Below, piece after piece: positions 4,875 to 30,882 of a stretch of DNA of 64,000 nt. The stretch comes from Lentisphaerae bacterium GWF2_57_35. Lineage in GTDB: Bacteria > Verrucomicrobiota > Kiritimatiellia > CAIQIC01 > GWF2-57-35. The notes beneath the pieces were generated by a model. That model worked only from the letters and a program-made list of their open reading frames with translations. It ran no database searches and had not been told where the DNA came from. Position numbers and translations under genes: made by a program. The stretch lies in NCBI GenBank assembly GCA_001804865.1, contig MHBK01000061.1, positions 9,547 to 73,546 of the forward strand, written 5' to 3'. Each line of letters starts with the position of its first letter. The first letter of the stretch is position 1.

Positions 4875-4879
4875 GCGTT

Positions 4880-4926: not shown

Positions 4927-4941
4927 GCTTCAGCTCTTGAA

Positions 4942-13869: not shown

Positions 13870-13879
13870 GGGGGGGGGG
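13870..13879. repeat. Homopolymeric G10 tract preceded by (GA)4
   Basis: TGAGAGAGAG-GGGGGGGGG-A lies 21 nt downstream of the acyltransferase stop. Confidence 0.8.
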
Positions 13880-13902
13880 AGCTCCAACGCAAGTCCCGCT
13901 TG

Positions 13903-14109
13903 GCCCTTCGACAAGCGCAGGCCAGGCGCATGGGGCAAAACGGGGGCGCGCCATCTTGGTTCATTGGCGGCGTTGGCGCAGGCCGGGCGGACAAAAGTCC
14001 TGCCCGGCCTGCGCCGCCTTGCCACTGAACCAAGCTGACGCGCCCCCGTTTTGGGGCCGATCGGAATCGGCCCGGCCCCATGCGCCTGGCCTGGCTTGTC
14101 GAAGGGCCA
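13903..14109. repeat. ~207-bp long near-perfect inverted repeat (nested arms A/B/C around a GGGCGGACAAAAGTCCTGCCC centre); candidate structured RNA or MITE-like element
   Basis: Arm A 13903-13937 versus 14076-14109 (one indel). Arm B AAAACGGGGGCGCG versus CGCGCCCCCGTTTT (perfect). Arm C ~13951-13988 versus 14006-14039 (imperfect). An additional hairpin CCCCATGcCAGTaaACTGgaCATGGGG lies at 14122-14148. Confidence 0.65.
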
Positions 14110-14176
14110 AGCGACAGCCACCCCATGCCAGTAAACTGGACATGGGGTTCCATTGCGGTAGTTGTTTTCTGTGGAG

Positions 14177-14204
14177 CCGGGGCGACTCGCCCCGGTCTTT
14201 TCTG
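14177..14204 (+). terminator. Rho-independent terminator ending the locus A operon (CCGGGGCG-ACT-CGCCCCGG + TCTTTTCT)
   Basis: Perfect 8-bp GC stem, 3-nt loop, U-rich tail on the + strand. Confidence 0.55.
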
Positions 14205-14253
14205 TCGGAACCTTTTTCTTTCGTAGCCGCCGGCGTAAGCCGGTGGCCTTTCA

Positions 14254-14469
14254 TTAGCCTTGCGCTGACAAGACGTTGCCCAGCAGGCGGCGGTATTCCT
14301 GCACCCATTTTCCGGCCAACACCTTCTTGCCAATCAGATAAAAAGCGTTTCCCAATTCATCCGAGCTTTCCAGCAAAGCCCGCGAATCGTTCAGGGCCAA
14401 CCCTTGGGCGTATTGAGTCTGTTTGGCGTCAATGAAGTCGTCGATGTTCACGATGTCTTGCAAGGTCAT
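14254..14469 (-). CDS. Hypothetical small protein (71 aa)
   Basis: ORF with genome-typical codon usage. No recognisable family. Confidence 0.3.
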   Translation of the reverse strand: MTLQDIVNIDDFIDAKQTQYAQGLALNDSRALLESSDELGNAFYLIGKKVLAGKWVQEYRRLLGNVLSAQG

Positions 14470-14694
14470 AGGTACAGCCTTTGTTGGGTTTCACGCCCGC
14501 GGAGGCGCACTGCGCTTCTCTGGCTGTTCCCAAGCAGGGTAGGCGCCAGTCCTCGTACCTCCAAGGAACCGACGAAAGACGCTTCATCAAGAAAGGTATT
14601 GCCTGCTGCAAAGAAACCTAGTATGCATCTAGCATAAATTTCAAAAAATGAAAAATCAGGAAGTGTTGAACGCATGAAAAGGAGGATGGGTTTG

Positions 14695-17600
14695 ATGAAA
14701 TGGTGCACTAGAGTTGTGATGGGCCTCCTATTTCTGGCGGCGGGAACCCGGCTGGTCGCGGATATTCATTATGTATCGCCGTCCGGGGACAACATTTCGC
14801 CGTATACGAGTTGGGCGACGGCCGCCCGGCTGGTGTCCAATGCCGTCTCCGTTGCCGGCGCGGGCGACACGGTGTTGGTCAGCAATGGGCTCTATTTCGT
14901 CTCCTCCGAAATCCTGCTGAAACAAGACGTTACTTTGCAGAGCGTCCAGGGTCCCGCCGCCACGATCCTGGATGGCAGCAACAAATGCCGGGTGGTTCGC
15001 ATGGCGGCGTCCAACGCCGTTTTGGATGGGTTTACCATTCAGCATGGGTTCGTCAATAACGGCGGGGGGGGCGGAGTTTGTCTCGAAGGAACCGGGGTGG
15101 TTCAAAACTGCGTCATTCGCGAAAACAAGGCTTCATCGGGTTATTATGCCGTAGGCGGGGGCGGGGTCTACTGCAACCGGGGCGGTACGGTCCGTTACTG
15201 CGAGATCCGGGATAACGAGGGCGCCTCCAGCGGCGGAGGGGTTCACTGCTACCTGGGCGGTCTGGTGCAGAATTGCGCGATAATTGGCAACGCCACGACG
15301 CTTTACGGTTCCGACGGCGGCGGCATCTATTTTGCACAAGGGGGCCGCGCGGAGAATTGCACGATCGGGGGAAACACGGCCTATGGCAGCGGAGATGGCA
15401 TCTACTGTTATGTGCAGGGCACGCTGGAAAACTGCATTATTTATCACAATGGCGACGAGAACTGGACGCCGGGGTGGAGCAACCGCATGACCTACTGCTG
15501 TACGACGCCCGCGGTGGGCGGCGCCGGCAATTTTACGAACGACCCGCGATGTCTGGCGCCGGTAGACGGTAATTTCCGGTTGTGCATGGACTCGCCGTGC
15601 CGGGATGCCGGCCTCCAGCGGCCGGAGTATCTCACGGCCCTGGATCTGGACGGCCGGCCCCGCGTGGCGGGGGCGGGCGTGGATCTGGGCGCCTACGAGG
15701 CCGGCCCGCTCCAGGCCGATTTTTCGGCCACTCGGCGGGTGGGGTTGGTTCCCTTGGATGTCGTCTATATGGCGGCGGTCTCGGCCACGAACGTGGACGG
15801 CCTCTGGTATGCCTGGGATCTCGACGGCGACTCGACCGTGGATATGGTCGGCTATGGTCTGGCCTGTGTGACCACGACCTATGAAACCATCGGCTGGCAT
15901 TCGGCCGCGCTGACGGTCGCCAATGCCGCCGGGGAAACCTCCCGCAGCGTAAAGCCGGCGTACTACGTGCAGGCCGGACCGACGGATGTTTACGTGGCGA
16001 CGAATGGCGGTGCGGCGTGGCCCTACGCCGACTGGAGCATGGCGGCGCGTTCGCTCCAGGCGGCGGTGGATGCCGGTGTAACCGGCACGCGGGTTTGGGT
16101 GTCGAATGGGCTGTACGTGCTGAACCAGCCTCTGACCCTTGCTCATGGCATTTATGTGAGCAGCATGAATGGCTTGGAAAGCACAACCCTCACGGGAACG
16201 GGCGGGGTGCGTTGCCTGTACTTGAATCATCCGCAGGCGGCGGTCGATGGGTTCACCATCACGAACGGCTATTCCGCTATGGGCTCGGGCGCCTATTTCG
16301 CGGAAGGCGGAGGCTCCGTGCGCCGTTGCCGGTTGGCCGGAAATCGCTCCTATGGATACGACGGCGGCGGGGCGGTCTATTTTGCGGCCGCCGGGCTGGT
16401 CGAAGATTGCGAGATCGTGGGCAATCGAGCGGAGTACCGGGGCGGGGGCGTAGCCTTCGTTAACGGCGGGATGGTCGATCGGTGCGTGATTTATGGAAAT
16501 CGAAGCTCCCAAGGCGGCGGCATCTATCTTTCCCAAGGAGGCTTGCTGCGAAATTCGCTGGTCTATGGCAATGCGGCTTCCTATGGAGGCGGAGCGTCCT
16601 CTTACAGCGGCGGTTTGATCGAGAATTCAACTCTTTGCCGCAATAGCGCCTCCGTGGTCGGAGGTGGGATTCAGGGGAACTGGGGCGGGATGCTGAGAAA
16701 CTCCATCGTATATTACAACGCGGCGCCGGAAGACGCCAATTGGTCGACGGAGGACAGTGGCCTGAGCTTCACCAATTGCTGCACCTTTCCGACCGCGGAC
16801 GGAGACGGCAACCAAGCCGGACCGCCGGGATTCCTCGATGAAGAGGAGTTCAATTTTGCCCTGATGCCGGACTCGCCTTGCCGCAACGCCGGCCGATACG
16901 AAACTTGGATGGAGGGGGCGACGGATGTGCGCGGTCAGGCGCGAGCGACAGAGAGTGCGGTGGATATGGGCGCCATGGAAACCGGCCCTTTGCAGGTGGA
17001 TATACGCGGCATGAACCTCACGGGACCCGCACCGCTGGCCGCCTGCTTCCAAACGGTTTGCTCGGGGACGAATACGACCATTGTGCGCTACGATTGGGAC
17101 CTGGACGGCGACGGCGTCATGGACTGGAGCGGGGCGGACGGTTCTGTGACGACAAATATTTTTACGACGGCCGGGCATTACGGGGTCATTTGCCAGGCGG
17201 TCAACTCCGCCGGCGAGACCGCGCGAGTCGCGAAGGCTTCCGGTTATGTGAAGGTGGGACCGGCTGCCGCCTACGTGGCCGCGTCGGGGGCGCACGAATA
17301 TCCCTACGACACCTGGGCCAAGGCGGCCACCAACATTCAGGCGGCCATTGGTGTCGGAACCTATGGAACGGTCGTCTGGGTCGCCAATGGAACCTATGTT
17401 TCCGGCGCGCGTCTGGCCGTTACCAATCACGTGACGCTGAAAAGCGTGAATGGGGCGGGTTGCACGATCGTTCAAGGCGAGGGCATGGACTCCTGCGTCT
17501 ACATGGACCAGGCGGAGGCTACGGTAGAGGGCTTCACGATCCAGGGCGGGTCTGGCAACGGCGGCGGCGTGCATATCCAGAGCGGCGGCCGTGTGCGGTA

Positions 17601-20600
17601 CTGCCGGGTGACCGGCAACGAGGCCTACTACGGCGCGGGGATCTACTGTGTGGCGTCCGCGGTGGTGGAGCGTTGTGAGGTTGACGGCAACAAGGCTGCG
17701 CAGGATGGCGGGGGCATCTATACCGAGTGGGGCCATAACCAAATACTGGATTGCGTGATCCGGAACAACGAGGCCGGCTCCTGCGGCGGCGGAGTGTATG
17801 CGGACGAGGGAACCCTTCTGCGCAATTGCGTGCTCGCTCGAAATCGCGGCGGTTATGGCGGCGGCGGATACGTGAAGGATGACGTGCAGGTGGATTCCTG
17901 CACCGTGACGGACAATCAAGGTTCCTACAAAGGCGGCGGCCTTTATTGGGATTCCAAGGTGGAGATTCAGAACTCCATTCTCTATTTCAACCGGTGCGAT
18001 TCCTCGAACGGCGGCTCCAACTATTTTTGCAATAGCTGCCAGTGGGACGGATTGGAATATATTCATATCGCCAACACCTGCCTGGCGCCGGCCCTGGCCG
18101 GCGACGGGAACACCGATGCGGATCCTTTGTTTCTGGATGTGGAAAACGAGGCGTATTCCTTGCAGCCGGGATCTCCTTGCGTCAATGCGGGCGTCCATGA
18201 GGCCTGGATGGTCGGGGGCTATGACATCGAGGGCTACGATCGCGTGATTCAAGGCGCGGTGGACATGGGCGCTTATGAATTTGGTCCTCTGCGCTGCTCG
18301 TTTCGGGCTGACCTCCGCGAGGGGACGGCGCCGATGGCGGTCGTCTTCACGTCCTTCGTTGCCGGAACCAACCTGGCCGGCCTGTACTACAAGTGGGATT
18401 TCAATGGCGATGGCGTGGCGGACCAGGAAGGCTATGGGCTGCAAGAAGTCACCAACCGTTACAACGACTTCGGCACGTTTGCGCCGAGACTCGTCGTGGC
18501 GGGCGCGGACGCCGAGACCCAGTCCTGCGAACTGCCCGGGGCCGGCATTCGTGTCGCTCCGGCCGCTTTGTATGTCGATCCCTCCGGCGCGGCCATTTAT
18601 CCCTACACCAACTGGAGCATGGCGGCGCGCGATATCCAGACGGCGGTGGATCAGAGCGCGCGGGGTTCGTGCGTGTGGGTCTCGAATGGGGTGTATACGC
18701 TGTCGGCGAGCGTGACGATCCCTCGCGCCATGACGGTTCGCAGCCTGAACGGCGCCGAGGCCGCGACGATTCATGGCAACGACGCCGTCCAGTGCGTTTC
18801 CCTGCTCGCCACCGGGGCCACGATCAGCGGATTTACCCTCACGGGTGGGCGGGGCCATTTGGGCGGCGGCGTTTACTGCGGGCGCGGCGCCGTGGTGGAT
18901 CGGTGCCGGGCGATGAGCAACCGCGCCTATCATGCGAGCTCCACGCTCGTATGGGGCGGCGGCGTGTATTGCGAAGGCGGCACGGTGCGCTATTCCGCCA
19001 TCGAAGACAACCGTACGGCCGAGGAAGGGTATGGCGGGGGCGGTTACATAACGAGCAGCGGTTTGGTGGAGCACTGCACGATCCTGCGCAATGAGGGCGG
19101 TTATGGCGGCGGCCTGTATGTAACCGAAGGGTCGGTGGTCCGAAATTCGATCGTGGCCGGAAATCTGGCGCTTAACTCCGACTACAACGAATCGGGCGGG
19201 GGCGGCGTCTATTGTTCGACGGAAAGCGCGATCGAGAATTGCACCATTGTAAATAACCGGGCGAATCGCTCCGGCGCAGGCGTCCTGCTCTACTACAATG
19301 GATACGTTCATAACAGCATCATCTGGTCCAATCAGGGTGCTAATGTCTACATCTTCGGCGGCATGGGATATGTGGACCATACTTGTAGCACCCCGCTGCC
19401 GGCAGGGAATGGAAATATCGCCGCGGACCCGCTGTTCGCCGATCTGGAAACCCTCGATGTCCGACTGCAACCCGGTTCGCCGTGCATCAACGTGGGAACC
19501 AACCAGGCCTGGATGGCGAAGGATACGGATTATCAGGGCTACGACCGGATCATCAACGGGCGCGTAGATCTGGGCGTCTACGAATTCTCGCCGGCCAACA
19601 CCGTGCGCGTGTCTGGTCACACGCCGGCCGGCAACGCGTTGCCGCCGTTGGGCTCGTTGCTGATTCATTTTCAATACGAAATGGACCCCGCCTCGTTTTC
19701 GATCGCGGAGGACATCCTCCGGTTCGAGGGTCCCTCCGGCGCTATCTCGGCAACCCAGGCCGCGTGGCTGTCGAGCCGTACCCTGCAGTTGACGTTTCCG
19801 ACCCAGACGGAATTGGGAAGCTACGAGCTGGTCCTGGGATCGCAAATGTCCGACCGCGAGGGCCGGGGTTTGGATCAGGACGGCGACGGCGTGCCCGGAG
19901 AAAGCCCGGACGACGAATACCTGGCCGCTTTCCGTTTCCCTGCTTTCTGGGTTATGAGCCATGAACCGAATGGCGAACGCACGGAAGCGGTGGACTCCCT
20001 GCGCATCCGTTTCAGTCAACCGGTTCAGCCGGGCGACTGCACCGCCGCCGATGTGACGCTGAACGGTCCGCTGGGATCCATTCCCATCGCCAACGACCCC
20101 CTCCGCGTGAGCAACGATCTTTATGAAGTTGCCTTTCCCCGGCAGGTCGCGGGCGGAACGTATGCGCTGACGGTCGGCCCGGAGATTTGGAGCGCCGACG
20201 GCGAATTGCTGGATCAGGATGGGGACGGCATGCCGGGTGAACCGGAACACGACCGGTACGAAGGATGCTTTACCATCGTGGACAATGCAGGTCCGCGGAT
20301 TGTCAGCGTCCTGCCGGCGTATGCCCGTGCCGCCGTCAGCAACCTGGTGATTCGATTCAGCGAGCCCATGTCGCCGGAACACTTCACCACAGAGGACCTG
20401 ACCCTGTCCGGTCCGGATGACTACATCGTCCTGGAGCAGATAACGGCGATCGCGCCGGACGAATTCCAGGTTTCGTTCCCCGCCGCAACGGACGCCGGAA
20501 CCTATTCGTTTTCCATCGGCCCGGATGTGCGCGATGTGGCGGGCAATATGATGGATCAGGACCAGGATGGACAAAAAGGCGAAGACTACGACGATGTTTA

Positions 20601-23600: not shown

Positions 23601-26600
23601 TCAACTCGTTGAAAAATCGCCCAATTTGACGGTGGCCGCTGTGACGGCTCCGCCGGAGGCGCTGGCCGGGAGCGTTATTCCGTTTCAGTGGACGGTCGAT
23701 AACCGGGGCGATCGCGCTGTTGAGTCCGTGGGCTGGCGAGATGCCGTCTATCTTTCCCGTGACGACGTGTTCGAACCGCAAACGGATATCGAAGTGGGTT
23801 CCGTGGAGCGGACGGGTCCTCTGGGAACCGGCGCCGCGTATTCGTCCTCGTGTTCGTTGCCGTTGCGCCAGGATCTGGAAGGGTCGTACCAGGTGTTTGT
23901 GGCGACGGACTCCCGCGGGGAAATCTACGAAGCGGGGCATGAGGCGGACAACGTGTCCACCTCGTTCGTCACGCTGGTCGTCCAAGGATCGCGCGTGGAT
24001 CTTTGCCCCGCGGCCTTCGCAGGCCCGGCGGAGGCGTATGCCGGACAAGAGGCCGCGATCGTCTGGGAGGTGCGGAACCAGGGGCGCGACGCGACGCCGG
24101 CTGTGCGCTGGGAGGATGCGCTCTACCTATCGGAGGACAACCGGTGGGATGCGCAAGATCAACGCCTGGCCAGTGTCGGCTATAACGGCCCGTTGGCGGC
24201 CCGCAGCCAATACCGGCGCGAACATTCGGCGATGCTGCCCGAAAATGCGGCCGGCGACTTTTTCCTGATCCTGAAAACCGATGCGGGTTCTTTCAACGAC
24301 GTTTTCGAATACCAGGCGGAAACCAACAACACGAGGGTTCAACCGATCCACATCGCTCTGCCGCCGCCGGCCGACCTTCAGCCGGTCGGCATCGCGAATG
24401 TCGGCGCGCTCTGGTCGGGCCAGTCGGCTCAGATTGAATGGACCGTCCGCAACAGCGGCCTCGCCGCCGCGGCCGGCCGGGCAGGTTCGTGGTATGACGG
24501 CGTGTATCTGTCGCGCGATCCGTTCCTCGATCGCGACCAGGACATCCGGCTTGGAAGCAGCGAACGGGTTGGCGCGCTGGCGCCGGAGGGGAGTTATGCC
24601 GCGTCCGGCACGTTCCGGTTGCCTCGCGGCATCAGTGGACCCTACTACTTGCTGGTGGCGGTGGACGAGACCGGCGAAGTGCCTGAGCGCGGGGGCGAGG
24701 GGAATAATCTGGGCGTCTCGGCGGCGCCCATTTCCATTTTGATGTTGCCGCCCTCGGATCTGGAGGTCCTCACGCTGGCGTGGAGCACGAATGCGATCGG
24801 GTATGACGACTCGCTGACGCTGACCGGTCTGGCGGCTAACACGTGGAGCGGCGGCGATTCGGCCTTGGGCGTCTGGTGGGACACGCTCTATCTGTCGAGC
24901 GACCGCACTTGGGACTTGGACGATCCCCGCATCGCCCGCCTGCGGCACGAAGGCGAGGTGGCTGCCGGCGAAACCTATTCGCTGGAGCTGGCGACCAACC
25001 TGCCGTCCGTCCTGCTGGGCGATTATTTCGTGATCGCCCGCGCGGACATCTTGAACGACGTGCGCGAACGCAGCGAAACCAACAACCTTTACGTGTCGAC
25101 CGGCGTCGTGACGGTGGTGGGCCGCGAGCTGGTTCTGAATCAGCCGCGTACCAACCGCATCGCGGCCGGACCGGCTCAGATGCATCACCTTGCGGCGTAT
25201 AGCAACGATGAGCGTTGGGTGACCTTGACGCCGGCGGGGGAGGGACGGTTTGAGTTGTACGCGGCTTACGGACGCCTGCCCGGGCGCAGCGATTACGATG
25301 AGCAGGCAACTTCCGAGAATGGCGAAGTCGTCAACCTGCGCATCCCCGCAACCGCCTCGGGAGCGTATTATGTCGCGGTCTATGGGTCCGCTACGGGCGC
25401 CCCGGCGATGTATTACCTCGAAGCCAGGGAGGCCGGATACGCGATTGCGAATTTGAACTTGTCGATGGCAGGCGCTGGAGGACAGGCGACGCTGACGGTC
25501 AAGGGCAGCGGCTTCAAAGCCGGAATGACGGCCCGCCTGGAAAATGCCTCGGGGGTTATCGTTGCCGAGGGACGGCTCCAGTTCCTGAACGCCGGGGAAG
25601 CGGCCGTGACCTTCGATCTTACAACGGCCGCGCCGGGGACGTATGTCCTGATCTTCGAAAATCCGGACGGCACGACCGTGCAGCAGAACTTCACGGTCGT
25701 TCCTCCTTCGTCCGAGGGCCTGTATGTGAATTTGAACCCTCCCGCGTTCGTGCGCGCCAATCGTTCTTACGCGCTCCGTCTGGTCTATGGCAATCGCGGG
25801 AACCGGGACATTCCTGCGCCGATAGTGAAAATAACCGCGGGCGGCGGCGGCCTGATAAGCCTGCGATCGGGCGACCCATTGGAATTTAAATCGTCGGTGC
25901 TGCTGTTGGCCGCGGCGCCGCAGGGGATGGCGGGCATCCTGCCGCCGCATTCGGAGTACACGATGGAATTGCCGCTGTTGGTAAATGGCGACGAGTATGT
26001 TCCCTTCAACATGAATGTCATCGCCTCCACAAATGTCGAAGTCCTGGATTGGCAGAAATATGAAAACACCCTGCGTCCCTCCGAGATGAGCGACCAGGAG
26101 TGGCAGCCCATGTTCGACCGCTTTAAAGCCCGGATGGGTGCAACGTGGGGCTCCTACGATACGCGTCTGGCGCTCGACGCCACGCGTCTGGCCCCGCGCG
26201 GGATCGATGTGGCGGATGTGGATGAATTGCTGGGATACGAAAAGAGTCTGGCCTTGGGCATGGGGCCGGCCGCCGTGGTGGGCACGGTGATAGACGCCGC
26301 GTCCGGCCTGGTCCTGACCGGGATGGTGGTCCAGGCCCTGCAAGATGGCGAATACAGGGGCGACGCGATCAGCGCGTCCAACGGTCTGTTTGTGATTTCG
26401 GCCCTGGAGGCCGGTTCGTATGTCCTGCAAGTGAAAGACGCCCTGCCGGCCGAAGAGGTTCGTGTGGACGTGAGCGCTGCGCAAGATGCCCTGGGCGTCG
26501 TTGTGCGCGCTTCCCGCGGTTACACTCTGACCGGTTCGGTGAGCGACGAACGCGGATGGCCGGTAACGAATGCGCTGGTGTTGTTGTCGGAGCAATCCCG

Positions 26601-29600
26601 TGGTTCGGTTGCGGCCGCTCCGGCTTGGCAACCGGACGGAACGTTTGCCATGAAGGCGCTGGCTCAAGGCTGCTACCGGGTGCAGGCGGCCGCCGGCGGT
26701 TATCTGCCGGCAGTGCAAGAGTCGATCCCGCTCGACGACCAGCACCCCGCGTCCAATCTGGTCTTCCGGCTGGAACGGGGCGCGAGTTTGACGGGCGTGG
26801 TGCGCGATGGATCAACGCTTGCGCCGGTGTCCGGGGCGTTGGTGTGCGCGTTGACGCGCAGCGGAGGCCGGCAATTCGGCCGCACGGATGCCGCCGGCGC
26901 TTATACGCTCAGGGGTTTGTCGGCCGATGGCTGGGAGATCCTGGCGATGGCCGAAGGCTATCTGAAATCGGAAGCGATCGCCGTGGAATTCGAGGCGCAC
27001 GAAACAAAGAACCAGGATTTGACCTTGATGCCGGGGGCGGTCCTCGTAGGACGGTTGGTCGGGCTGTCCGGCGCTCCTGTCACGGGGGTGACGGTCAAGG
27101 CCACGACGGAGACTTCTTCCGGCAGCGCGGCGACCGACGATCAGGGTTGGTATCGTATCGTTGGGTTGGGCGCCGGCATTCATCAACTGACGGCGGGAGG
27201 CACGGGCGGTCTGGCGCCGGCCCGAGCGGAGACGCCTTGTTTGGTTCCCGGCGCCGAAACTCGGTTGCCTGACGTCCGGCTCGTAGAGGGGGGCGTCATC
27301 AGCGGCCGGATTGTAGCCGCCCAGGATTCTTTGCCGATTGCTGGCGCCAGCCTGGCCATCGCAGGTCGGGACGACGGTCCTCAAAGCGTCATCGTTGGCG
27401 CCGACGGCAGGTTTTCCGCTGAAGGCTATCCGGCCGGCAGCTACCTCTTGTCCGCTTCGGCTCCTGACCATGCCGATGTTCAGCGCCTTGTGACGATGCC
27501 CTCCAATCTGGTTTGTGCGGCGACGGAATTGGCGTTGTCCTCTCCCGGCGTTGTGACAGGAACGGTTTGCCATGCGGCGGGCCTGCCGTTGTCGTCCGGC
27601 GTGGTGGTCCGCCTTTACAGTCCGCAAGGCCTCCGGTTGGGCGAAGTGCCGGTGGATGTGCGCGGCGGATTCCGCTACGCGCCGGTCGTGCCGGGCGCCT
27701 ATGTGGCGCTGCCGGCCTCGGACCAGTGGGCCTTTACCGGTCGTACGATCCAGGTGGCGGCCGGTTCCGTCTGTGGCGTTCGGTTCGTCGCCGAGTCGTC
27801 CGGATTAACCGGAACGGTCGTCGATGCGGCGACCGGCGATCCCATCGCCGGCGCTCAGTTGGTCTATCGATCGGAAAGGGAGCCGGCGCAGCTCTGGGAC
27901 GCTCAAACTTCCGCAAATGGCGAATACGAATTTTCCAGCCTGGCGCCCGGGCCGGGCCATCTGACCGTGTCCGCTCCTGGCAAAGGACGTGTCCGGCAAG
28001 CGGTGACCCTGCCGGCGCAGGGGCGAGCCCATTACGCGGCCGCCTTGTCGGCCGGCTACACGATCGACGGCCGCGTAACGGATGCGGCGACCGGCAAGCC
28101 GATCCCGGAGGCCTTGATTCAGGTCGTGGAGCAAAATGCCGGTCTCTGGGGCTGGCGGGTATATGCGGGCGTGGATACGAACGGTTCTTATGAAGTGGCG
28201 GATCTGCCTTCCGGCGAAATGCTGCTGCGCGTCTGCGCGACCGGTTATCCGCTCGTGGAACGGGTCGTGACGCTGAGCAGCGATATCCGGGAAGACGTGG
28301 GGCTGGCGACCAATGGGTATCGGTTGCGGCTCGTGGTGCAAGAGACTCCGGCCCATGCGCCGGTGAGCGGCGTTATGGGCCAATTGTGCCGGGACGGATC
28401 GCCTGTCGCGTCTTTCAAAACCGATGTCTCGGGGACGGCGACGATTGAACCCCTGGCCGCGGCGGTCTACGACATTCGTTGGATTTATCCGGTGGCGGAT
28501 TTGGATTCCGGCCTGTCGGTCACGGGCAACTGCGAGGTAGCGTACAACCTGGACCCGGTGACGGCCGCCCTGTCCCAAGCGGATGCCATGCACTACCGGC
28601 ATGTTCTGGATGAGCTGCCGGAACCCGAGCACTGGTGGCAATATTTGCAGAATGACTACATCCTGGCGATGTCGGAGGAGACGGCCGTCAGCTTGGCTTG
28701 CCGATTCATAGGGACCGTTACCTTCTGGATGCCCGTCAGTTGTAAGCACATGCGCCAGTTCCTGAATCAGTACAGGGAAACGATCTATCATACGCGCGAC
28801 TTTGCGGCTATGCACGTGCAGGCGGATGGGCGTTTTATCAACTTCGGCAAGGAAGTTTCGAAAGAGCTGCTTACGAAATTTCCTCACAACGCCGGTCCCG
28901 GCGCCATGATTCTGGGGCAACCGCTCAATACGCCGATAGACTATGTCGTGCCGTATACCCAGTATCGTCAGACGCATGTTCCCATCTTTTATCAGAATTC
29001 CTTCGACAGCCCGGTGTATACCGGTTTCGGCGGTATCTATTATGACGACCTGAGACTGGCTTATGGAAATGTTGACGAGGTGTTCTACTCCGGCCTCCTG
29101 AGGTACAAAAAAACGGTCGATCTGAACCTGGGACATGAGGTGATGAACGTGACGTACGATTCCTTGCTGGAGTTCACTCTGTGGGACGAATGGAACTTTG
29201 AGAAGGGATTCGGGTTCCCCGAGAATGTATTTGCCCGACTGCAATCGGAATATGGTTACCAGTCGGATTATACCTTGACGCGAACTCCGCTTCAGGTGAA
29301 GGGCACGCTCGTCTTCCCGATGTACTTAGTGCGAGTCTTTACCTCGCCGGACGAAGGCGGAACGGCCAGCGCGGAAATGATTCCGGACACCGGGGAGAAA
29401 GTCGGCGAATACTATACCCTATATTCCCAGATAACGCTAACCGCTCAACCCAAGCCCGGTTATCGTTTCAAGGAGTGGGCCAGCCTTTACCAGTACAAGC
29501 CCAAGGGCAATCCAGCCGTCATCGGCTTGTTCAAGCCCGCCTTGATGATGGCTATTTTCGAGAAAATCAACGAAACGAACAAACCGGACCCGGACCCGGA

Positions 29601-30882
29601 TAACGGCCCGCCCGCCGGCGGAAGCACGCCCATGCAATCCCATGATCCAAACGACAAGCTGGTGGATGTGGGCGTGGGCGACGAGCGCTTCATCACGGAG
29701 GGGCAGTCGTTGCGGTATACGATTCGCTTCGAGAATCAATCCAACGCCACGGCCTCGGCCCAGTTGGTGACCATTACCGATCCGCTGGATGAACGGCTGG
29801 ATTGGAGCACGCTGGAACTGGATGCGATCCAATTCGGCGATCGGGTGGTGGAGGTCCCCTCCGGCCTGCAAGCCTATGACCGCCGGGTGGACTTGCGGCC
29901 GTTCGGCAATGACCTTTTAGTGGATGTCAAAGCGCGGTTCGATCGCGAAACCGGGCGCCTTTCCTGGCTGCTGGAAGCGATCGATCCGGCGACCGGCGAA
30001 TTCACGGAAGATCCCTTTGCCGGGTTTCTCCCGCCGAACGACGCCCTGCACAGCGGCGAAGGCAGCGTCTCGTTCCGGATCAAGCCTCGCGCCGGGCTGG
30101 CCTCCGGCACGGCCATTCCCAACATCGCGAGCATTGTCTTCGATTGGAACGAACCGATTCGCACGCCGCTGGTCAACGTCACCATCGATAGCGGCCTGCC
30201 GTCCAGCCAAGTTGAGGCCCTGCCGACGGAATCGCCCTTGCGATTCATGGTGTCCTGGACCGGCCAGGACGATGTCGGCGGCAGCGGATTGGCCGGCTAT
30301 GACGTTTATGTGTCGACCGATGGCGACCCCTATGCCAAGTGGCTGATCCGGACCGAACAAGCGCGTGCCTGGTTCGAGGGGATCGAAGGCTCGGAATATC
30401 GGTTCGTCGCCTTGGCCTACGATCGGGTCGGCCACGTTGAACCCTGGCCCTCCTCCGCTCCGGATGCCTGGACGCGCGCCCTGGCGATCGCCGGTTCGCC
30501 CGGCGACGAAGATGGCGACGGCATTCCCGACGACTGGGAGCGGGCGGTATTCGGTTCGCCGCTGGCTGCCCAGGCGGTTTCCGATCACGACCGCGATGGC
30601 GTGACCGATCGGGAAGAGTACCTGGCCGGGACCGATGCGCTGAGCGCAGACTCTTCGTTCGTGCTGCATTCGCCGCAACTGGAGCATGCGTTCTCCCCGT
30701 CCTTCGTCTTGAGGTGGGCCAGCGCTACGAATCGGACGTATACGATCGTCAAATTCACCAACGGATTTTCGCAGGGCGTCATCATGACCCAGGGCATGGC
30801 CGGCCTCCCGCCGATCAATGTCTATACCGATGGGCAAGTGAACGGCAGCGCCATCTACGGCATCATGACCGGCCCGCCTTGA
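14695..30882 (+). CDS. Giant secreted multi-repeat surface/adhesin-like protein (~5,395 aa)
   Basis: AGGAGG RBS 9 nt before ATG 14695. Signal peptide MKWCTRVVMGLLFLAAGTRLVA. Four repeated right-handed beta-helix modules (GGG[VI][YH]C motifs), each ending in ...SPC[RV]NAG... plus a PKD-like WDLDGDG segment. Five Ig-like repeats containing LDQDGDG[VM]PGE. About 18 CARDB-like repeats (PDL...AGQ...W.[VT].N.G....W.D.VYLS...E[TP]NN). About 10 carboxypeptidase-regulatory-like beta-sandwich repeats. An uncharacterised ~350-aa globular region. DUF11-like repeats. Thrombospondin-type-3-like Asp-rich Ca-binding motifs (GDEDGDGIPDDWE, DHDRDGVTDREE). A C-terminal ~70-aa domain. The 16.2-kb uninterrupted frame is highly significant in itself. 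Confidence 0.85.
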   Translation: MKWCTRVVMGLLFLAAGTRLVADIHYVSPSGDNISPYTSWATAARLVSNAVSVAGAGDTVLVSNGLYFVSSEILLKQDVTLQSVQGPAATILDGSNKCRVVRMAASNAVLDGFTIQHGFVNNGGGGGVCLEGTGVVQNCVIRENKASSGYYAVGGGGVYCNRGGTVRYCEIRDNEGASSGGGVHCYLGGLVQNCAIIGNATTLYGSDGGGIYFAQGGRAENCTIGGNTAYGSGDGIYCYVQGTLENCIIYHNGDENWTPGWSNRMTYCCTTPAVGGAGNFTNDPRCLAPVDGNFRLCMDSPCRDAGLQRPEYLTALDLDGRPRVAGAGVDLGAYEAGPLQADFSATRRVGLVPLDVVYMAAVSATNVDGLWYAWDLDGDSTVDMVGYGLACVTTTYETIGWHSAALTVANAAGETSRSVKPAYYVQAGPTDVYVATNGGAAWPYADWSMAARSLQAAVDAGVTGTRVWVSNGLYVLNQPLTLAHGIYVSSMNGLESTTLTGTGGVRCLYLNHPQAAVDGFTITNGYSAMGSGAYFAEGGGSVRRCRLAGNRSYGYDGGGAVYFAAAGLVEDCEIVGNRAEYRGGGVAFVNGGMVDRCVIYGNRSSQGGGIYLSQGGLLRNSLVYGNAASYGGGASSYSGGLIENSTLCRNSASVVGGGIQGNWGGMLRNSIVYYNAAPEDANWSTEDSGLSFTNCCTFPTADGDGNQAGPPGFLDEEEFNFALMPDSPCRNAGRYETWMEGATDVRGQARATESAVDMGAMETGPLQVDIRGMNLTGPAPLAACFQTVCSGTNTTIVRYDWDLDGDGVMDWSGADGSVTTNIFTTAGHYGVICQAVNSAGETARVAKASGYVKVGPAAAYVAASGAHEYPYDTWAKAATNIQAAIGVGTYGTVVWVANGTYVSGARLAVTNHVTLKSVNGAGCTIVQGEGMDSCVYMDQAEATVEGFTIQGGSGNGGGVHIQSGGRVRYCRVTGNEAYYGAGIYCVASAVVERCEVDGNKAAQDGGGIYTEWGHNQILDCVIRNNEAGSCGGGVYADEGTLLRNCVLARNRGGYGGGGYVKDDVQVDSCTVTDNQGSYKGGGLYWDSKVEIQNSILYFNRCDSSNGGSNYFCNSCQWDGLEYIHIANTCLAPALAGDGNTDADPLFLDVENEAYSLQPGSPCVNAGVHEAWMVGGYDIEGYDRVIQGAVDMGAYEFGPLRCSFRADLREGTAPMAVVFTSFVAGTNLAGLYYKWDFNGDGVADQEGYGLQEVTNRYNDFGTFAPRLVVAGADAETQSCELPGAGIRVAPAALYVDPSGAAIYPYTNWSMAARDIQTAVDQSARGSCVWVSNGVYTLSASVTIPRAMTVRSLNGAEAATIHGNDAVQCVSLLATGATISGFTLTGGRGHLGGGVYCGRGAVVDRCRAMSNRAYHASSTLVWGGGVYCEGGTVRYSAIEDNRTAEEGYGGGGYITSSGLVEHCTILRNEGGYGGGLYVTEGSVVRNSIVAGNLALNSDYNESGGGGVYCSTESAIENCTIVNNRANRSGAGVLLYYNGYVHNSIIWSNQGANVYIFGGMGYVDHTCSTPLPAGNGNIAADPLFADLETLDVRLQPGSPCINVGTNQAWMAKDTDYQGYDRIINGRVDLGVYEFSPANTVRVSGHTPAGNALPPLGSLLIHFQYEMDPASFSIAEDILRFEGPSGAISATQAAWLSSRTLQLTFPTQTELGSYELVLGSQMSDREGRGLDQDGDGVPGESPDDEYLAAFRFPAFWVMSHEPNGERTEAVDSLRIRFSQPVQPGDCTAADVTLNGPLGSIPIANDPLRVSNDLYEVAFPRQVAGGTYALTVGPEIWSADGELLDQDGDGMPGEPEHDRYEGCFTIVDNAGPRIVSVLPAYARAAVSNLVIRFSEPMSPEHFTTEDLTLSGPDDYIVLEQITAIAPDEFQVSFPAATDAGTYSFSIGPDVRDVAGNMMDQDQDGQKGEDYDDVYYGEWVLDRTCPRVTWANPSAGELFDALTRVDVQFSEEMDFLQMTPNLATCIGPYGVVQATNIVAVSTDSARFYFPATEASGELVFRLAESACDLAGNPLDQNQNGVGGEPGDAFSRTYEQSLPDLVIGGLSGPTEAWPEQAVDVTWMATNAGPGWAAGPWHDVVRISPTAQPGPNDLVLASLEFDGELEPDGSYTRVWSGRLPALAEGRWWLHATLDASNRLAEGGGSFNNRLTTTHPLWITSRPGPDLRVDELEAAEAMIGGWKYRVTWRVANHGTAGTSAAGWQDRVYLSPQPVFDSSQAVAVSPPIRNPDFLASGESYEQEAEIVIPFDTGYGDWYLMVRADDQNQVEEFGAETNNAKGLAVSITGPNVSDEPYLSVVSIEAPAVLRAGQRPDITWTIRNTGGQTILNGWASGTGWDDGLAISPDPIYDASDYWLGSHNYWNGCPLAPGESYTTTGKPEHPIPAWAGSYYLIVVPDTHFGANAAFGASMVDRSFGVFPVTIEAGGGYLDLVVTNIITPPFLSPGQTTRIGWQVRNIAVGSLAGKSWCDRIFLSDDGSLNGALLLAEKQGPSSSIEGYDASAGIQVPADMEPGAYYLVAAADVRNELTETDENNNVGISTQTVHVVRREVDLTISTAAAPSAATSGGLLNVQWTTLNRGRDELADDVWQDAWYLSTHPEFHPVQARCLGRFKHEQTLAAGGEMTNAASVAVPFDVEGAYYVHVVCDSAGAVFEYQGETNNVYRLPGLLTVNGDAADLTVLNIQCPTQAAAGQSMSILWGITNAGNLAAEAPWMDAVYLSTNEVWSRQNARLVWCGTQTNRLAAGGMKEQAGVLVSLADGISGLYYVYVETDSRQEVYERGAEPNNIVRSLQPVTVVDYLPDLEIVSSFVTGEPAAGELVSVSWTIANRGEDYVTAPWDEAIYLSTDAVWSVEEDLLLARYTHGDEVAAGATSACPVEATSVRLPARIGGVRYLLIVTDPDGARAELCETNNVAVVSTLQLVEKSPNLTVAAVTAPPEALAGSVIPFQWTVDNRGDRAVESVGWRDAVYLSRDDVFEPQTDIEVGSVERTGPLGTGAAYSSSCSLPLRQDLEGSYQVFVATDSRGEIYEAGHEADNVSTSFVTLVVQGSRVDLCPAAFAGPAEAYAGQEAAIVWEVRNQGRDATPAVRWEDALYLSEDNRWDAQDQRLASVGYNGPLAARSQYRREHSAMLPENAAGDFFLILKTDAGSFNDVFEYQAETNNTRVQPIHIALPPPADLQPVGIANVGALWSGQSAQIEWTVRNSGLAAAAGRAGSWYDGVYLSRDPFLDRDQDIRLGSSERVGALAPEGSYAASGTFRLPRGISGPYYLLVAVDETGEVPERGGEGNNLGVSAAPISILMLPPSDLEVLTLAWSTNAIGYDDSLTLTGLAANTWSGGDSALGVWWDTLYLSSDRTWDLDDPRIARLRHEGEVAAGETYSLELATNLPSVLLGDYFVIARADILNDVRERSETNNLYVSTGVVTVVGRELVLNQPRTNRIAAGPAQMHHLAAYSNDERWVTLTPAGEGRFELYAAYGRLPGRSDYDEQATSENGEVVNLRIPATASGAYYVAVYGSATGAPAMYYLEAREAGYAIANLNLSMAGAGGQATLTVKGSGFKAGMTARLENASGVIVAEGRLQFLNAGEAAVTFDLTTAAPGTYVLIFENPDGTTVQQNFTVVPPSSEGLYVNLNPPAFVRANRSYALRLVYGNRGNRDIPAPIVKITAGGGGLISLRSGDPLEFKSSVLLLAAAPQGMAGILPPHSEYTMELPLLVNGDEYVPFNMNVIASTNVEVLDWQKYENTLRPSEMSDQEWQPMFDRFKARMGATWGSYDTRLALDATRLAPRGIDVADVDELLGYEKSLALGMGPAAVVGTVIDAASGLVLTGMVVQALQDGEYRGDAISASNGLFVISALEAGSYVLQVKDALPAEEVRVDVSAAQDALGVVVRASRGYTLTGSVSDERGWPVTNALVLLSEQSRGSVAAAPAWQPDGTFAMKALAQGCYRVQAAAGGYLPAVQESIPLDDQHPASNLVFRLERGASLTGVVRDGSTLAPVSGALVCALTRSGGRQFGRTDAAGAYTLRGLSADGWEILAMAEGYLKSEAIAVEFEAHETKNQDLTLMPGAVLVGRLVGLSGAPVTGVTVKATTETSSGSAATDDQGWYRIVGLGAGIHQLTAGGTGGLAPARAETPCLVPGAETRLPDVRLVEGGVISGRIVAAQDSLPIAGASLAIAGRDDGPQSVIVGADGRFSAEGYPAGSYLLSASAPDHADVQRLVTMPSNLVCAATELALSSPGVVTGTVCHAAGLPLSSGVVVRLYSPQGLRLGEVPVDVRGGFRYAPVVPGAYVALPASDQWAFTGRTIQVAAGSVCGVRFVAESSGLTGTVVDAATGDPIAGAQLVYRSEREPAQLWDAQTSANGEYEFSSLAPGPGHLTVSAPGKGRVRQAVTLPAQGRAHYAAALSAGYTIDGRVTDAATGKPIPEALIQVVEQNAGLWGWRVYAGVDTNGSYEVADLPSGEMLLRVCATGYPLVERVVTLSSDIREDVGLATNGYRLRLVVQETPAHAPVSGVMGQLCRDGSPVASFKTDVSGTATIEPLAAAVYDIRWIYPVADLDSGLSVTGNCEVAYNLDPVTAALSQADAMHYRHVLDELPEPEHWWQYLQNDYILAMSEETAVSLACRFIGTVTFWMPVSCKHMRQFLNQYRETIYHTRDFAAMHVQADGRFINFGKEVSKELLTKFPHNAGPGAMILGQPLNTPIDYVVPYTQYRQTHVPIFYQNSFDSPVYTGFGGIYYDDLRLAYGNVDEVFYSGLLRYKKTVDLNLGHEVMNVTYDSLLEFTLWDEWNFEKGFGFPENVFARLQSEYGYQSDYTLTRTPLQVKGTLVFPMYLVRVFTSPDEGGTASAEMIPDTGEKVGEYYTLYSQITLTAQPKPGYRFKEWASLYQYKPKGNPAVIGLFKPALMMAIFEKINETNKPDPDPDNGPPAGGSTPMQSHDPNDKLVDVGVGDERFITEGQSLRYTIRFENQSNATASAQLVTITDPLDERLDWSTLELDAIQFGDRVVEVPSGLQAYDRRVDLRPFGNDLLVDVKARFDRETGRLSWLLEAIDPATGEFTEDPFAGFLPPNDALHSGEGSVSFRIKPRAGLASGTAIPNIASIVFDWNEPIRTPLVNVTIDSGLPSSQVEALPTESPLRFMVSWTGQDDVGGSGLAGYDVYVSTDGDPYAKWLIRTEQARAWFEGIEGSEYRFVALAYDRVGHVEPWPSSAPDAWTRALAIAGSPGDEDGDGIPDDWERAVFGSPLAAQAVSDHDRDGVTDREEYLAGTDALSADSSFVLHSPQLEHAFSPSFVLRWASATNRTYTIVKFTNGFSQGVIMTQGMAGLPPINVYTDGQVNGSAIYGIMTGPP

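What the first reader, a model, noticed from the sequence alone, without database searches (positions are those of the whole stretch)
14695..30882. 16.2-kb gene for a ~5,400-aa secreted repeat protein wedged between the pigment loci
The uninterrupted frame encodes a signal peptide. It is followed by four beta-helix modules with PKD-like segments and five Ig-like repeats bearing Ca-binding-like DxDGDG motifs. Then come ~18 CARDB-like repeats, ~10 carboxypeptidase-regulatory-like repeats and an unassigned ~350-aa globular region. DUF11-like repeats, thrombospondin-type-3-like Asp boxes and a small C-terminal domain follow. Proteins of this size are rare. They usually act as adhesins, S-layer or biofilm matrix components, or as secretion-system-dependent cell-surface proteins. 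Its position inside an outer-membrane lipid/pigment export neighbourhood (LolA, MMPL, ABC, RND) is notable. A G8 run in the coding region (15064..15071, encoding Gly5) and a G10 run nearby (13870..13879) could be slippage-prone.
Basis: seen in the sequence. Interest (0 to 1): 0.7.

Follow-up and report, generated by a model that had tools for sequence, protein, structure and literature searches.

The report
Giant secreted repeat protein, Lentisphaerae
This is a real, intact 16.2-kb gene in an uncultivated groundwater Lentisphaerae bacterium that encodes a roughly 40-domain, probably cell-surface fibre protein, an ordinary kind of giant protein for this phylum apart from one 264-residue domain with no detectable relative anywhere.

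Summary
The open reading frame is real: 14695..30882 on the + strand, 5395 aa, with an AGGAGG ribosome-binding site 9 nt upstream. Three assemblies agree exactly over the parts I could compare, and the gene has no near-identical DNA repeats, so it is not an assembly artefact. The source is Lentisphaerae bacterium GWF2_57_35, where NCBI lists the protein as "hypothetical protein".

- 4 beta-helix heads, 3 of them followed by PKD
- 4 Big_5 repeats, not 5
- 12 CARDB-like repeats, not ~18
- 8 to 9 CarboxypepD_reg repeats, not ~10
- one DUF7619 domain, one FN3 domain and 2 TSP3 Asp boxes

The unassigned region is 264 aa (4620-4883). It had no homolog in an exhaustive HMMER scan of 1.84 billion cluster representatives.

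The C-terminal ~75 aa match no known sorting signal. They belong to an uncurated FN3-like tail family ("...FYRVGVQ") found at the extreme C-terminus of many ~550-aa signal-peptide/beta-helix proteins of the Planctomycetes-Verrucomicrobia-Chlamydiae (PVC) group. The giant protein looks like one of those proteins with about 4,600 aa inserted between head and tail.

The most likely function is a Sec-exported, calcium-binding surface fibre or adhesin. The G runs occur no more often than chance, and the position inside the aryl-polyene cluster looks incidental. This is a new member of a known kind, of modest interest.

The parts
14680..14685 (+). Shine-Dalgarno sequence AGGAGG, 9 nt upstream of ATG 14695
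   Evidence: Read directly from the sequence.
14695..30882 (+). Giant gene: 5395 codons plus the stop codon
   Evidence: The same product is called in ENA, JGI and NCBI records.
14695..14757 (+). Sec-type signal-peptide-like N-terminus, MKWCTRVVMGLLFLAAGTRLVA|DI (aa 1-21). There is no lipobox after the hydrophobic region.
   Evidence: Sequence features and a crude hydropathy rule. SignalP was not available.
14758..15723 (+). Beta-helix head 1 (aa 22-343): PbH1/NosD-like repeats with a choice-of-anchor Q cap
15724..15960 (+). PKD domain 1 (aa 344-422)
15961..17004 (+). Beta-helix head 2 (aa 423-770)
17005..17241 (+). PKD domain 2 (aa 771-849)
   Evidence: (best PKD stretch at aa 779-846).
17242..18303 (+). 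Beta-helix head 3 (aa 850-1203)
18304..18540 (+). PKD domain 3 (aa 1204-1282)
18541..19611 (+). Beta-helix head 4 (aa 1283-1639), not followed by PKD
   Evidence: (best choice-of-anchor Q stretch at aa 1586-1631).
19612..20979 (+). Four Big_5 Ig-like repeats (aa 1640-2095). Each ends in a D-x-[DN]-x-[DN]-G Ca-binding-like motif (aa 1727, 1840, 1954, 2069).
21082..25527 (+). Twelve CARDB-like repeats (aa 2130-3611). The last one is divergent and has a weak PPC-like signature.
   Evidence: (CARDB E = 2.2e-74).
25528..26247 (+). Poorly assigned middle segment (aa 3612-3851): a TIG-like beta-sandwich, a CARDB-like module and a short helical stretch
   Evidence: Only sub-threshold hits. The segment description comes from reading the sequence.
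26248..28551 (+). Eight CarboxypepD_reg repeats (aa 3852-4531) plus one degenerate ninth repeat (aa 4532-4619)
   Evidence: (E = 1.5e-77). The ninth rests on weak hits and the strand pattern of a low-confidence model.
28552..29343 (+). Orphan domain (aa 4620-4883), rich in F, Y, H, K and M. No detectable homolog.
   Evidence: No Pfam or NCBIfam hit at E <= 1. Only the protein itself in an exhaustive HMMER scan of 1.84e9 representatives. No PDB hit. No metagenome relative. GC3 of 0.69 is close to native genes.
29344..29499 (+). Divergent InlB B-repeat (Flg_new_2) (aa 4884-4935)
   Evidence: E = 9.8e-6, 25.9 bits against a cutoff of 23.6.
29638..30189 (+). DUF7619 domain (aa 4982-5165)
   Evidence: 73.5-74.1 bits against a cutoff of 27. 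44 homologs, many of which carry a T9SS sorting domain somewhere in the protein.
30190..30489 (+). FN3-like domain (aa 5166-5265)
   Evidence: Conserved together with DUF7619 in homologs. Weak match to titin FN3.
30490..30654 (+). Linker with two TSP3-type Asp boxes (aa 5266-5320; DEDGDG at 5271, DHDRDG at 5297)
   Evidence: TSP3_bac 21 bits, below the cutoff of 25. EF-hand-like weak hits.
30655..30879 (+). C-terminal FN3-like beta-sandwich (aa 5321-5395), a divergent member of the uncurated 'FYRVGVQ' tail family
15064..15071 (+). G8 run inside the coding region. A one-base deletion or insertion would stop translation at aa 153 or 174.
   Evidence: Not above chance. Invariant in the assemblies.
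14176..14247 (+). Two terminator-like hairpins between the upstream lipid operon and the giant gene
   Evidence: consensus scan only.

Best explanation
**What it is.** The gene encodes a Sec-exported, calcium-binding, extracytoplasmic fibre protein. It is most likely displayed on or released from the cell surface of a Lentisphaerae bacterium and acts as an adhesin or binding protein.

**How it evolved.** It appears to be an elongated version of a common ~500-600-aa PVC protein type with the layout signal peptide, right-handed beta-helix head, TSP3 Ca-binding linker, FN3-like C-terminal tail. In the giant protein the head is present four times. About 35 further modules sit between head and tail: Big_5, CARDB, CarboxypepD_reg, the orphan domain, an InlB B-repeat, DUF7619 and FN3.

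**Inferred mechanism.**
- The C-terminal DUF7619-FN3-TSP3-tail end is proximal to the cell.
- The acidic stalk of beta-sandwich repeats, stiffened by Ca2+, holds the four beta-helix heads away from the cell, perhaps on the order of 100 nm.
- The heads bind a ligand such as a polysaccharide, another cell or a mineral or particle surface.

**Shown:** the intact gene, the domain architecture, and head and tail homology to the small proteins.

**Inferred:** export across the outer membrane, orientation, fibre length and ligand binding.
For: - **Intact gene.** The ORF is intact and the assemblies agree.
- **Export signal.** The N-terminus has a positive n-region, a hydrophobic core and an LVA|D cleavage-like site.
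- **Surface-type heads.** Choice-of-anchor Q matches four times (122 bits, cutoff 25). As I recall, that family is defined by occurring with alternative surface anchors.
- **Head relatives.** 303 relatives of the head were found. The 120 listed are mostly 400-700-aa proteins, named where a name exists as beta-helix repeat, choice-of-anchor Q or 'predicted outer membrane repeat' proteins from Kiritimatiellia, Lentisphaerota and Planctomycetota.
- **Tail family.** 54 of 167 fetched proteins carry the tail. In 47 of them it ends within 15 aa of the C-terminus.
- **Tail partners look exported.** 30 of 38 complete tail-bearing proteins look signal-peptide-bearing. They share the mature N-terminal motif YV..N...P.PPYTSWATAA with the giant protein.
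- **Membership holds up.** The leave-one-out profile score is 37.7 bits, against 8.0 for the best of 2000 shuffles.
- **Paralog.** P0089 in the same genome has both the head and the tail.
- **DUF7619 in T9SS cargo.** About 24 of the 44 DUF7619 homologs also carry a T9SS sorting domain in their precomputed Pfam lists, and three are named T9SS sorting-domain proteins. By definition that domain is C-terminal.
- **Extracellular-type composition.** Acidic residues D+E make up 11.5% and K only 1.1%. Cys is enriched in the heads. There are six DxDxDG-type motifs in the stalk and tail.
- **Literature.** Surface attachment or recognition proteins are the second largest class of bacterial proteins over 5000 aa, and Lentisphaerae is enriched in such proteins (PMC11573180).
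Against: - There is no experimental localisation.
- No recognised outer-membrane translocation or anchoring signal was found, and the outer-membrane route is unknown.
- The tail has a generic FN3 fold and could simply be one more spacer domain.
- The heads could be enzymes rather than binding modules.
- The orphan domain's role is unknown.
- Orientation and fibre length are inference only.
Confidence: 0.6

Rival explanations
1. It is a cell-attached multi-enzyme. The four beta-helix heads, and perhaps the orphan domain, are carbohydrate-active catalytic modules (lyase or esterase type), and the repeats act only as spacers. This would fit a polysaccharide-degrading PVC lifestyle.
For: - The heads give NosD/CASH-type beta-helix hits.
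- The head profile has a marginal match to pectinesterase 1xg2 (E = 0.0098) and to a xylosidase (E = 0.27).
- The FN3-like tail most resembles the FN3 modules of C. thermocellum cellulosomal enzymes.
- From my own knowledge, Kiritimatiellia and Lentisphaerae are known glycan degraders.
Against: - No Pfam or NCBIfam hit to any pectate lyase, glycoside hydrolase or esterase family.
- No significant sequence match in the PDB.
- The invariant head columns are structural: the Asn/Gly/Cys ladder and the cap motif SPC...D..G..R...D.GAYE.
- Head relatives include Chlamydia-Pmp-type repeat proteins, which are adhesins.
Confidence: 0.2
2. It is a structural S-layer or biofilm-matrix protein that forms a lattice or extracellular mesh rather than a discrete adhesin.
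For: - Its CarboxypepD_reg repeats resemble those of the anammox S-layer glycoprotein Kustd1514 (NF052345, E = 1.5e-25).
- It is highly acidic and has Ca-binding motifs.
Against: - The NF052345 score is 88.8 bits against a cutoff of 1400, so only the repeats match.
- From my own knowledge, S-layer proteins are usually much smaller and highly expressed.
- The head-stalk-tail polarity and the homology to small single-head proteins fit a fibre better than a lattice.
Confidence: 0.1
3. The protein is functionally linked to the surrounding aryl-polyene lipid pathway, for example as an outer-membrane partner or carrier of the pigment.
For: It lies between two halves of the cluster. Upstream are KS, thioesterase, ApeI-like, B12-rSAM and LpxL-type acyltransferase genes. 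Downstream are methyltransferase, KASIII, BtrH_N, ABC, ACP and KS genes, with MMPL, LolA and an aromatic amino-acid lyase further on.
Against: - Terminator-like hairpins and a divergent small ORF separate it from the upstream operon.
- No domain of the protein matches a lipid-handling family.
- The head/tail relatives sampled lie in eight unrelated contexts.
- The same cluster is also interrupted by an AbiL/PDC-S02 defence islet, so insertions into it occur.
- Synteny in relatives could not be tested because no syntenic cluster was found.
Confidence: 0.05
4. It is a phase-variable contingency gene switched on and off by slippage of the G8 tract, or it is an assembly artefact or pseudogene.
For: - G8 lies in the coding region at codons 124-126, and a one-base slip truncates the product at aa 153 or 174.
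- Surface proteins are typical phase-variation targets (my own knowledge).
Against: - Runs of 8 or more G are not above chance.
- The assemblies are identical at both runs.
- G10 lies outside the gene and behind terminator-like hairpins.
- The gene has no repeat structure that would cause collapse or expansion.
- The frame stays open for 5395 codons.
Confidence: 0.05

Closest known systems
Single-module 'choice-of-anchor Q' / right-handed beta-helix proteins of PVC bacteria (NF041518; some annotated 'predicted outer membrane repeat protein' with Chlam_PMP repeats)
   Same: - The signal peptide and the mature N-terminal motif match.
- The beta-helix head is 27-43% identical.
- The cap motif is the same.
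- In many of them the TSP3 linker and the FN3-like 'FYRVGVQ' tail are also the same.
- One such protein, P0089, is a paralog in the same genome.
   Different: - Those proteins are 400-700 aa with a single head.
- The giant protein has four heads and about 4,600 aa of extra modules between head and tail.
- Its tail ending is divergent (AIYGIMTGPP, with Arg replaced by Gly).
Giant T9SS-secreted adhesins of Bacteroidota (e.g. SprB of Flavobacterium johnsoniae; from my own knowledge) and DUF7619 proteins carrying a T9SS sorting domain
   Same: - An N-terminal Sec signal.
- A very long array of beta-sandwich repeats.
- A small beta-sandwich domain at the extreme C-terminus.
- About 24 of the 44 DUF7619 homologs also carry a T9SS sorting domain.
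   Different: - No match of the C-terminal tail to T9SS type A or type B sorting-domain models at E <= 1.
- The tail's structural neighbours are generic FN3 domains.
- T9SS is not known outside the FCB group (my own knowledge).
RTX / type-1-secreted giant adhesins (LapA, SiiE, MpIBP; from my own knowledge)
   Same: A Ca2+-stiffened stalk of Ig-like repeats, with functional modules at one end.
   Different: - This protein has a Sec signal peptide.
- It has no RTX (HemolysinCabind) repeats and no T1SS C-terminal signal.
Kustd1514-family anammox S-layer glycoprotein (NF052345)
   Same: It comes from the PVC superphylum and has CarboxypepD_reg-like repeats.
   Different: The score is 88.8 bits against a cutoff of 1400. 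Only the repeat units match.
'Huge proteins' (>5000 aa) of PVC bacteria as surveyed in PMC11573180
   Same: - The size class matches.
- Lentisphaerae is listed as enriched in such proteins.
- The surface-protein functional class matches.
- The paper notes that these proteins are poorly characterised.
   Different: The survey describes no specific family. The orphan domain and the tail family found here are not covered in it.

Membership tests
Choice-of-anchor Q domain proteins (NF041518) | Match to the NCBIfam domain model above its cutoff | tested here: met
   122.4 bits against a cutoff of 25, in 4 stretches, one per beta-helix head.
T9SS cargo | A C-terminal type A (TIGR04183/PF18962) or type B sorting domain at the extreme C-terminus | tested here: not met
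   No hit in the last 216 or 96 aa at E <= 1. The only TIGR04183 hit is internal, at aa ~3626-3663, with 16.8 bits against a cutoff of 23. Fold neighbours of the tail are generic FN3 domains.
PEP-CTERM / exosortase and LPXTG / sortase substrates | A C-terminal motif, then a transmembrane helix, then a basic tail | tested here: not met
   No LPXTG motif. The only PEP is at aa 4642. No hydrophobic segment near the C-terminus. No NCBIfam hit.
RTX / T1SS adhesins | C-terminal RTX nonapeptide repeats and no Sec signal peptide | tested here: not met
   No HemolysinCabind hit. A signal-peptide-like N-terminus is present.
Type V autotransporters / chlamydial Pmp | A C-terminal beta-barrel translocator domain | tested here: not met
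   No autotransporter barrel hit. Only the relatives' heads show Chlam_PMP repeats.
Kustd1514 S-layer glycoprotein family (NF052345) | Full-length match above the cutoff of 1400 bits | tested here: not met
   88.8 bits, on the repeats only.
DUF7619 (PF24595) | Pfam match above the gathering score | tested here: met
   73.5-74.1 bits against a cutoff of 27. 44 homologs align over aa 4937-5314.
'FYRVGVQ' TSP3 + FN3-like C-terminal tail (uncurated family defined here) | Sequence match to a profile built without the query | tested here: met
   The leave-one-out HMM scores 37.7 bits over aa 5292-5386. The best of 2000 shuffles scores 8.0 bits.
'FYRVGVQ' TSP3 + FN3-like C-terminal tail (uncurated family defined here) | Position at the extreme C-terminus, preceded by a TSP3 Asp box, on a protein with a signal peptide and a beta-helix head | tested here: met
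   The domain ends at the last residue. Asp boxes are at aa 5271 and 5297, and the heads are at the N-terminus.
'FYRVGVQ' TSP3 + FN3-like C-terminal tail (uncurated family defined here) | Conserved terminal strand with the aromatic-Y-R-[VI] ending | tested here: inconclusive
   The giant protein has I-Y-G-I. The Tyr is kept, but the Arg that is conserved in at least 90% of members is replaced by Gly.
Aryl-polyene (APE) biosynthesis/export cluster component | Homology to a known Ape protein, or co-transcription and conserved synteny with the cluster | tested here: inconclusive
   There is no homology to lipid-pathway families, and terminator-like hairpins lie upstream. Synteny in relatives could not be tested because no syntenic locus was found.
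Phase-variable contingency locus | Tract-length variation between reads or strains | not testable with these tools
   Only assemblies were available. All show G8 and G10. Tract frequency is not above chance.

The most novel reading that the evidence does not exclude
The TSP3 + FN3-like 'FYRVGVQ' tail may be a previously undescribed, PVC-wide C-terminal sorting or surface-attachment tag. It would be functionally analogous to the T9SS C-terminal domain but unrelated to it in sequence. The giant protein would be its largest known cargo, and its 264-aa orphan domain would be a lineage-specific effector or binding module with a new fold.
Probability: 0.12. Interest if true: 0.65.

Novelty: new member of a known kind. 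Interest (0 to 1): 0.3.

Why it matters
Giant surface proteins are common in PVC bacteria but almost entirely uncharacterised. This example gives a clean, artefact-free architecture. It also shows how such a giant can arise: a small head-plus-tail secreted protein expands by multiplying its head and inserting a long stalk.

Two by-products could be useful.
- A recurrent, uncurated C-terminal tail family could be turned into a curated model. It could then be tested as a localisation signal in Verrucomicrobia, Planctomycetes and Lentisphaerae.
- A 264-aa domain has no detectable relative among roughly 15 billion predicted proteins.

Neither overturns current understanding. The finding mainly improves the annotation of a "hypothetical protein".

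Tried and rejected
- **AF2 on the orphan region without an alignment** (aa 4532-4890) gave pLDDT 35.5, which is unusable. No homologs exist from which to build an alignment.
- **Word-indexed search with the C-terminal 130 aa** found nothing. The tail family surfaced only indirectly, through relatives of the head.
- **Genome-contig scan with the adjacent B12-rSAM gene** returned 80 loci. All were paralogous rSAM genes at 18-34% identity with no shared cluster organisation, so synteny could not be tested. The source genome itself did not appear in that collection.
- **Metagenome scan with the orphan domain** found no relatives.
- **The Amuc_1099 'pilus-like system' lead was rejected.** 22 of 30 tails match NF042425, but in the three tails checked the match falls only on the TSP3-like linker (tail residues 14-60) and stays below the cutoff (about 20-22 bits against 50). 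The giant protein's own tail does not match at all.
- **Link between the tail and T2SS or type-IV-pilus machinery.** Only 2 of 8 sampled contexts were adjacent to such genes, so there is no consistent association.
- **Foreign origin of the orphan domain was rejected.** Its low GC (0.53) comes from its amino-acid composition, and its GC3 (0.69) is close to that of native genes.
- **The weak hits from the exhaustive search explain nothing.** P0046 and P0048 match only the flanking repeat, and P0047 is noise.
- **RNA genes.** No tRNA gene and no Rfam family was found in the window.
Full report
**1. Observation**

A single open frame runs from 14674 to 30882 on the + strand. It gives 5395 aa. Public records call the same gene as 5395, 5402 or 5387 aa, depending on which ATG they use.

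The gene contains no tandem repeat. No direct DNA repeat is longer than 67 nt, and non-reference copies are at most 84% identical. The protein's internal repeats are only 23-50% identical to each other. This is not the kind of repeat structure that collapses or expands during assembly.

Three assemblies carry the locus: ENA ERZ28564009 scaffold_747, ENA ERZ909592 (a MEGAHIT assembly) and NCBI GCA_003489865.1. They are 100% identical to the window over 14695-24469 and 25683-30882. They are probably built from the same sample. I could not cross-check 24470-25682. The only difference between assemblies is a 20-nt indel in an intergenic palindrome at 14054-14097.

The G10 run (13870-13879) and the G8 run (15064-15071) both exist. 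Runs of 8 or more G are not over-represented: 4 overlapping matches against 5.97 expected from dinucleotide-preserving shuffles.

**2. Source**

The protein is in NCBI as OGV41902.1 (MAG: Lentisphaerae bacterium GWF2_57_35) and as HBA86345.1 (Verrucomicrobia bacterium MAG). Both are annotated "hypothetical protein". The ENA record labels the sample a groundwater metagenome. The organism is therefore an uncultivated member of the PVC superphylum.

**3. Architecture**

Residues are numbered from the Met at 14695.

| Residues | Module |
|---|---|
| 1-21 | Signal-peptide-like region, MKWCTRVVMGLLFLAAGTRLVA\|DI, with no lipobox after the hydrophobic core |
| 22-1639 | Four right-handed beta-helix heads. 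Each ends in a choice-of-anchor Q cap (NF041518, 122 bits against a cutoff of 25, four stretches). The first three are each followed by a PKD domain. |
| 1640-2095 | Four Big_5 repeats, each ending in a D-x-[DN]-x-[DN]-G motif |
| 2130-3611 | Twelve CARDB-like repeats. The last is divergent, with a sub-threshold PPC signature. |
| 3612-3851 | Poorly assigned segment |
| 3852-4531 | Eight CarboxypepD_reg repeats, plus a degenerate ninth at 4532-4619 |
| 4620-4883 | Orphan region |
| 4884-4935 | Divergent InlB B-repeat |
| 4936-4981 | Pro/Asp-rich linker |
| 4982-5165 | DUF7619 |
| 5166-5265 | FN3-like domain |
| 5266-5320 | Two TSP3-type Asp boxes |
| 5321-5395 | Final ~75-aa domain |

The protein is strongly acidic. 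D+E make up 11.5% and K only 1.1%. Cys is concentrated in the heads.

**4. The orphan domain**

Residues 4620-4883 gave no Pfam or NCBIfam hit even at E <= 1. There was no PDB sequence match. No relative turned up in a metagenome-contig scan.

In an exhaustive HMMER scan of 1.84 billion cluster representatives, standing for about 15 billion proteins, the region matched only the protein itself. The three weak extra hits fall on the flanking CarboxypepD_reg-like repeat or are noise. That library hides relatives above 50% identity, but the 90% cluster holds only this genome's copies.

The region's low GC (0.53) reflects a different amino-acid composition, with more F, Y, H, K and M and less G and A. 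Its GC3 (0.69) is close to that of native genes, so there is no sign of recent foreign origin.

AF2 without an alignment failed, with pLDDT 35.5. The function of this domain stays unknown.

**5. The C-terminus**

- No T9SS type A or B, PEP-CTERM or LPXTG model matches the tail at E <= 1.
- There is no LPXTG motif and no terminal hydrophobic helix.

A direct search with the last 130 aa also found nothing. The tail family emerged from the head instead. Relatives of the head are mostly 400-700-aa proteins from Kiritimatiellia, Lentisphaerota and Planctomycetota, and many end in the same TSP3 linker plus ~75-aa domain.

- An iterative profile finds the module in 54 of the 167 proteins fetched. In 47 of them it ends within 15 aa of the C-terminus, with the consensus ending "...GPFFYRVGVQ".
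- The giant protein's tail aligns along its whole length.
- It scores 37.7 bits against a profile built without it. The best of 2000 shuffles scores 8.0 bits.
- Its last strand is divergent (AIYGIMTGPP).

Pfam recognises only the TSP3 linker. The NCBIfam Amuc_1099 similarity also sits only on the linker, in the three tails checked, and is below the family cutoff.

Of the 38 tail-bearing proteins that start with Met, 30 have a signal-peptide-like N-terminus. They share the mature N-terminal motif YV..N...P.PPYTSWATAA with the giant protein. A 594-aa paralog in the same genome, P0089, has both the head and the tail.

The simplest reading is that the giant protein is a member of this small-protein family that expanded. 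Its head was quadrupled, and about 4,600 aa of stalk and accessory modules were inserted between head and tail.

Eight genomic contexts of tail-bearing proteins are heterogeneous. Only two lie next to T2SS or type-IV-pilus genes. No dedicated machinery can be inferred.

**6. DUF7619 relatives**

All 44 relatives of the C-terminal third align only to aa 4937-5314, which is DUF7619 plus FN3. About 24 of them, many from Bacteroidota, also carry a T9SS sorting domain. By definition that domain is C-terminal, so it lies beyond this module. This is consistent with, but does not prove, the C-terminal end being the cell-proximal end.

The two closest relatives, P0001 and P0002, carry the same modules in a permuted order: DUF7619-FN3 first, then the beta-helix heads. 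This shows that modules have been shuffled within the family.

**7. Function**

The best-supported explanation is a Sec-exported, Ca2+-binding, surface-displayed or released fibre with four distal beta-helix heads. That is an adhesin-like protein (confidence about 0.6).

The main rival is that the heads are carbohydrate-active enzymes. Only marginal evidence supports it: pectinesterase at E = 0.0098 with the head profile. No CAZyme family hit was found. Other rivals are listed in the rival-explanations section with their evidence.

**8. Neighbourhood**

The flanks form an aryl-polyene-type lipid cluster.
- Upstream: ApeI/FabA-like, 4HBT thioesterase, a ketosynthase, two B12-binding radical SAM genes and an LpxL-type acyltransferase.
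- Downstream: a methyltransferase, KASIII, BtrH_N, an ABC-2 transporter, ACPs and a KS/CLF pair.
- Further downstream: a third B12-rSAM gene, DUF3261, MMPL (marginal), a LolA-like gene and an aromatic amino-acid ammonia-lyase.

A functional link is not supported, for three reasons.
- Two terminator-like hairpins (14176-14247) and a divergent 71-aa ORF separate the giant gene from the upstream operon.
- The protein has no lipid-related domain.
- The cluster is also interrupted at 42.5-47.5 kb by a low-GC islet. It encodes an AbiLi/AbiLii abortive-infection pair and a PDC-S02/DUF1016 gene.

Synteny in relatives could not be tested.

**9. G runs**

A one-base slip in G8 would truncate the protein at aa 153 or 174, so phase variation is mechanistically possible. 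There is no evidence for it: tract frequency is at chance level, and the assemblies are invariant. G10 is intergenic, 21 nt after the acyltransferase stop codon and 816 nt upstream of the giant gene's start. It lies ahead of a large palindrome and the terminator-like hairpins.

**10. Novelty and verdict**

Bacterial proteins over 5000 aa are uncommon overall. They are specifically enriched in Lentisphaerae and other PVC phyla, and surface attachment or recognition proteins are their second largest functional class in bacteria (PMC11573180).

This gene is a well-supported new member of that known kind. The orphan domain and the uncurated tail family are worth recording but do not change the picture. 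Interest is 0.3.

Noticed in passing
window 13897-14113: A nested palindrome of about 217 nt (four arm pairs, 91-100% complementary) lies in the intergenic region just after the G10 run. It is the only place where independent assemblies disagree: one has a right arm 20 nt shorter, at 14054-14097.
   Followed up: partly
window 42523-47485: A low-GC islet (GC 0.46-0.55) interrupts the aryl-polyene cluster. It encodes a PDC-S02/DUF1016 nuclease-like gene (42523-43746, - strand) and an AbiLi/AbiLii abortive-infection pair (45480-46880 and 46835-47485; E = 4e-83 and 8e-24).
   Followed up: partly
window 10320-11567, 11590-12957, 47523-49007: Three B12-binding radical SAM genes are embedded in an aryl-polyene-type cluster that also has an aromatic amino-acid ammonia-lyase (52759-54378). 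From my own knowledge this is an unusual complement for canonical APE clusters. The nearest relative of the 455-aa rSAM in the species-representative genome collection is only 34% identical.
   Followed up: partly
window 14254-14469 (- strand): A 71-aa ORF lies divergently upstream of the giant gene. Public annotations call it as a gene and it has no family hit. Its function is unknown.
   Followed up: no
P0001 and P0002 (JGI metagenome proteins, 1003 and 1378 aa): These are the closest relatives of the DUF7619-FN3 module (52-60% identical). They carry the same modules in permuted order, DUF7619-FN3 first and then beta-helix heads, and they end in repeated 'N.GQLK' motifs rather than the FYRVGVQ tail.
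   Followed up: partly
L092 1-9392 (ENA ERZ18242372 NODE_98): A tail-bearing beta-helix protein (P0169) is the last gene of a T2SS/type-IV-pilus-like operon (T2SSE, T2SSF, two N-methyl pseudopilins, PilM). The giant protein's paralog P0089 also lies between TadE and T2SSE genes (L088). Six other contexts show no such link.
   Followed up: partly
window 54984-56345, 57239-59095, 61008-62201 (-), 62442-63842 (-), 43968-45365: Five sizeable ORFs (397-618 aa) have no Pfam or PADLOC hit at all.
   Followed up: no
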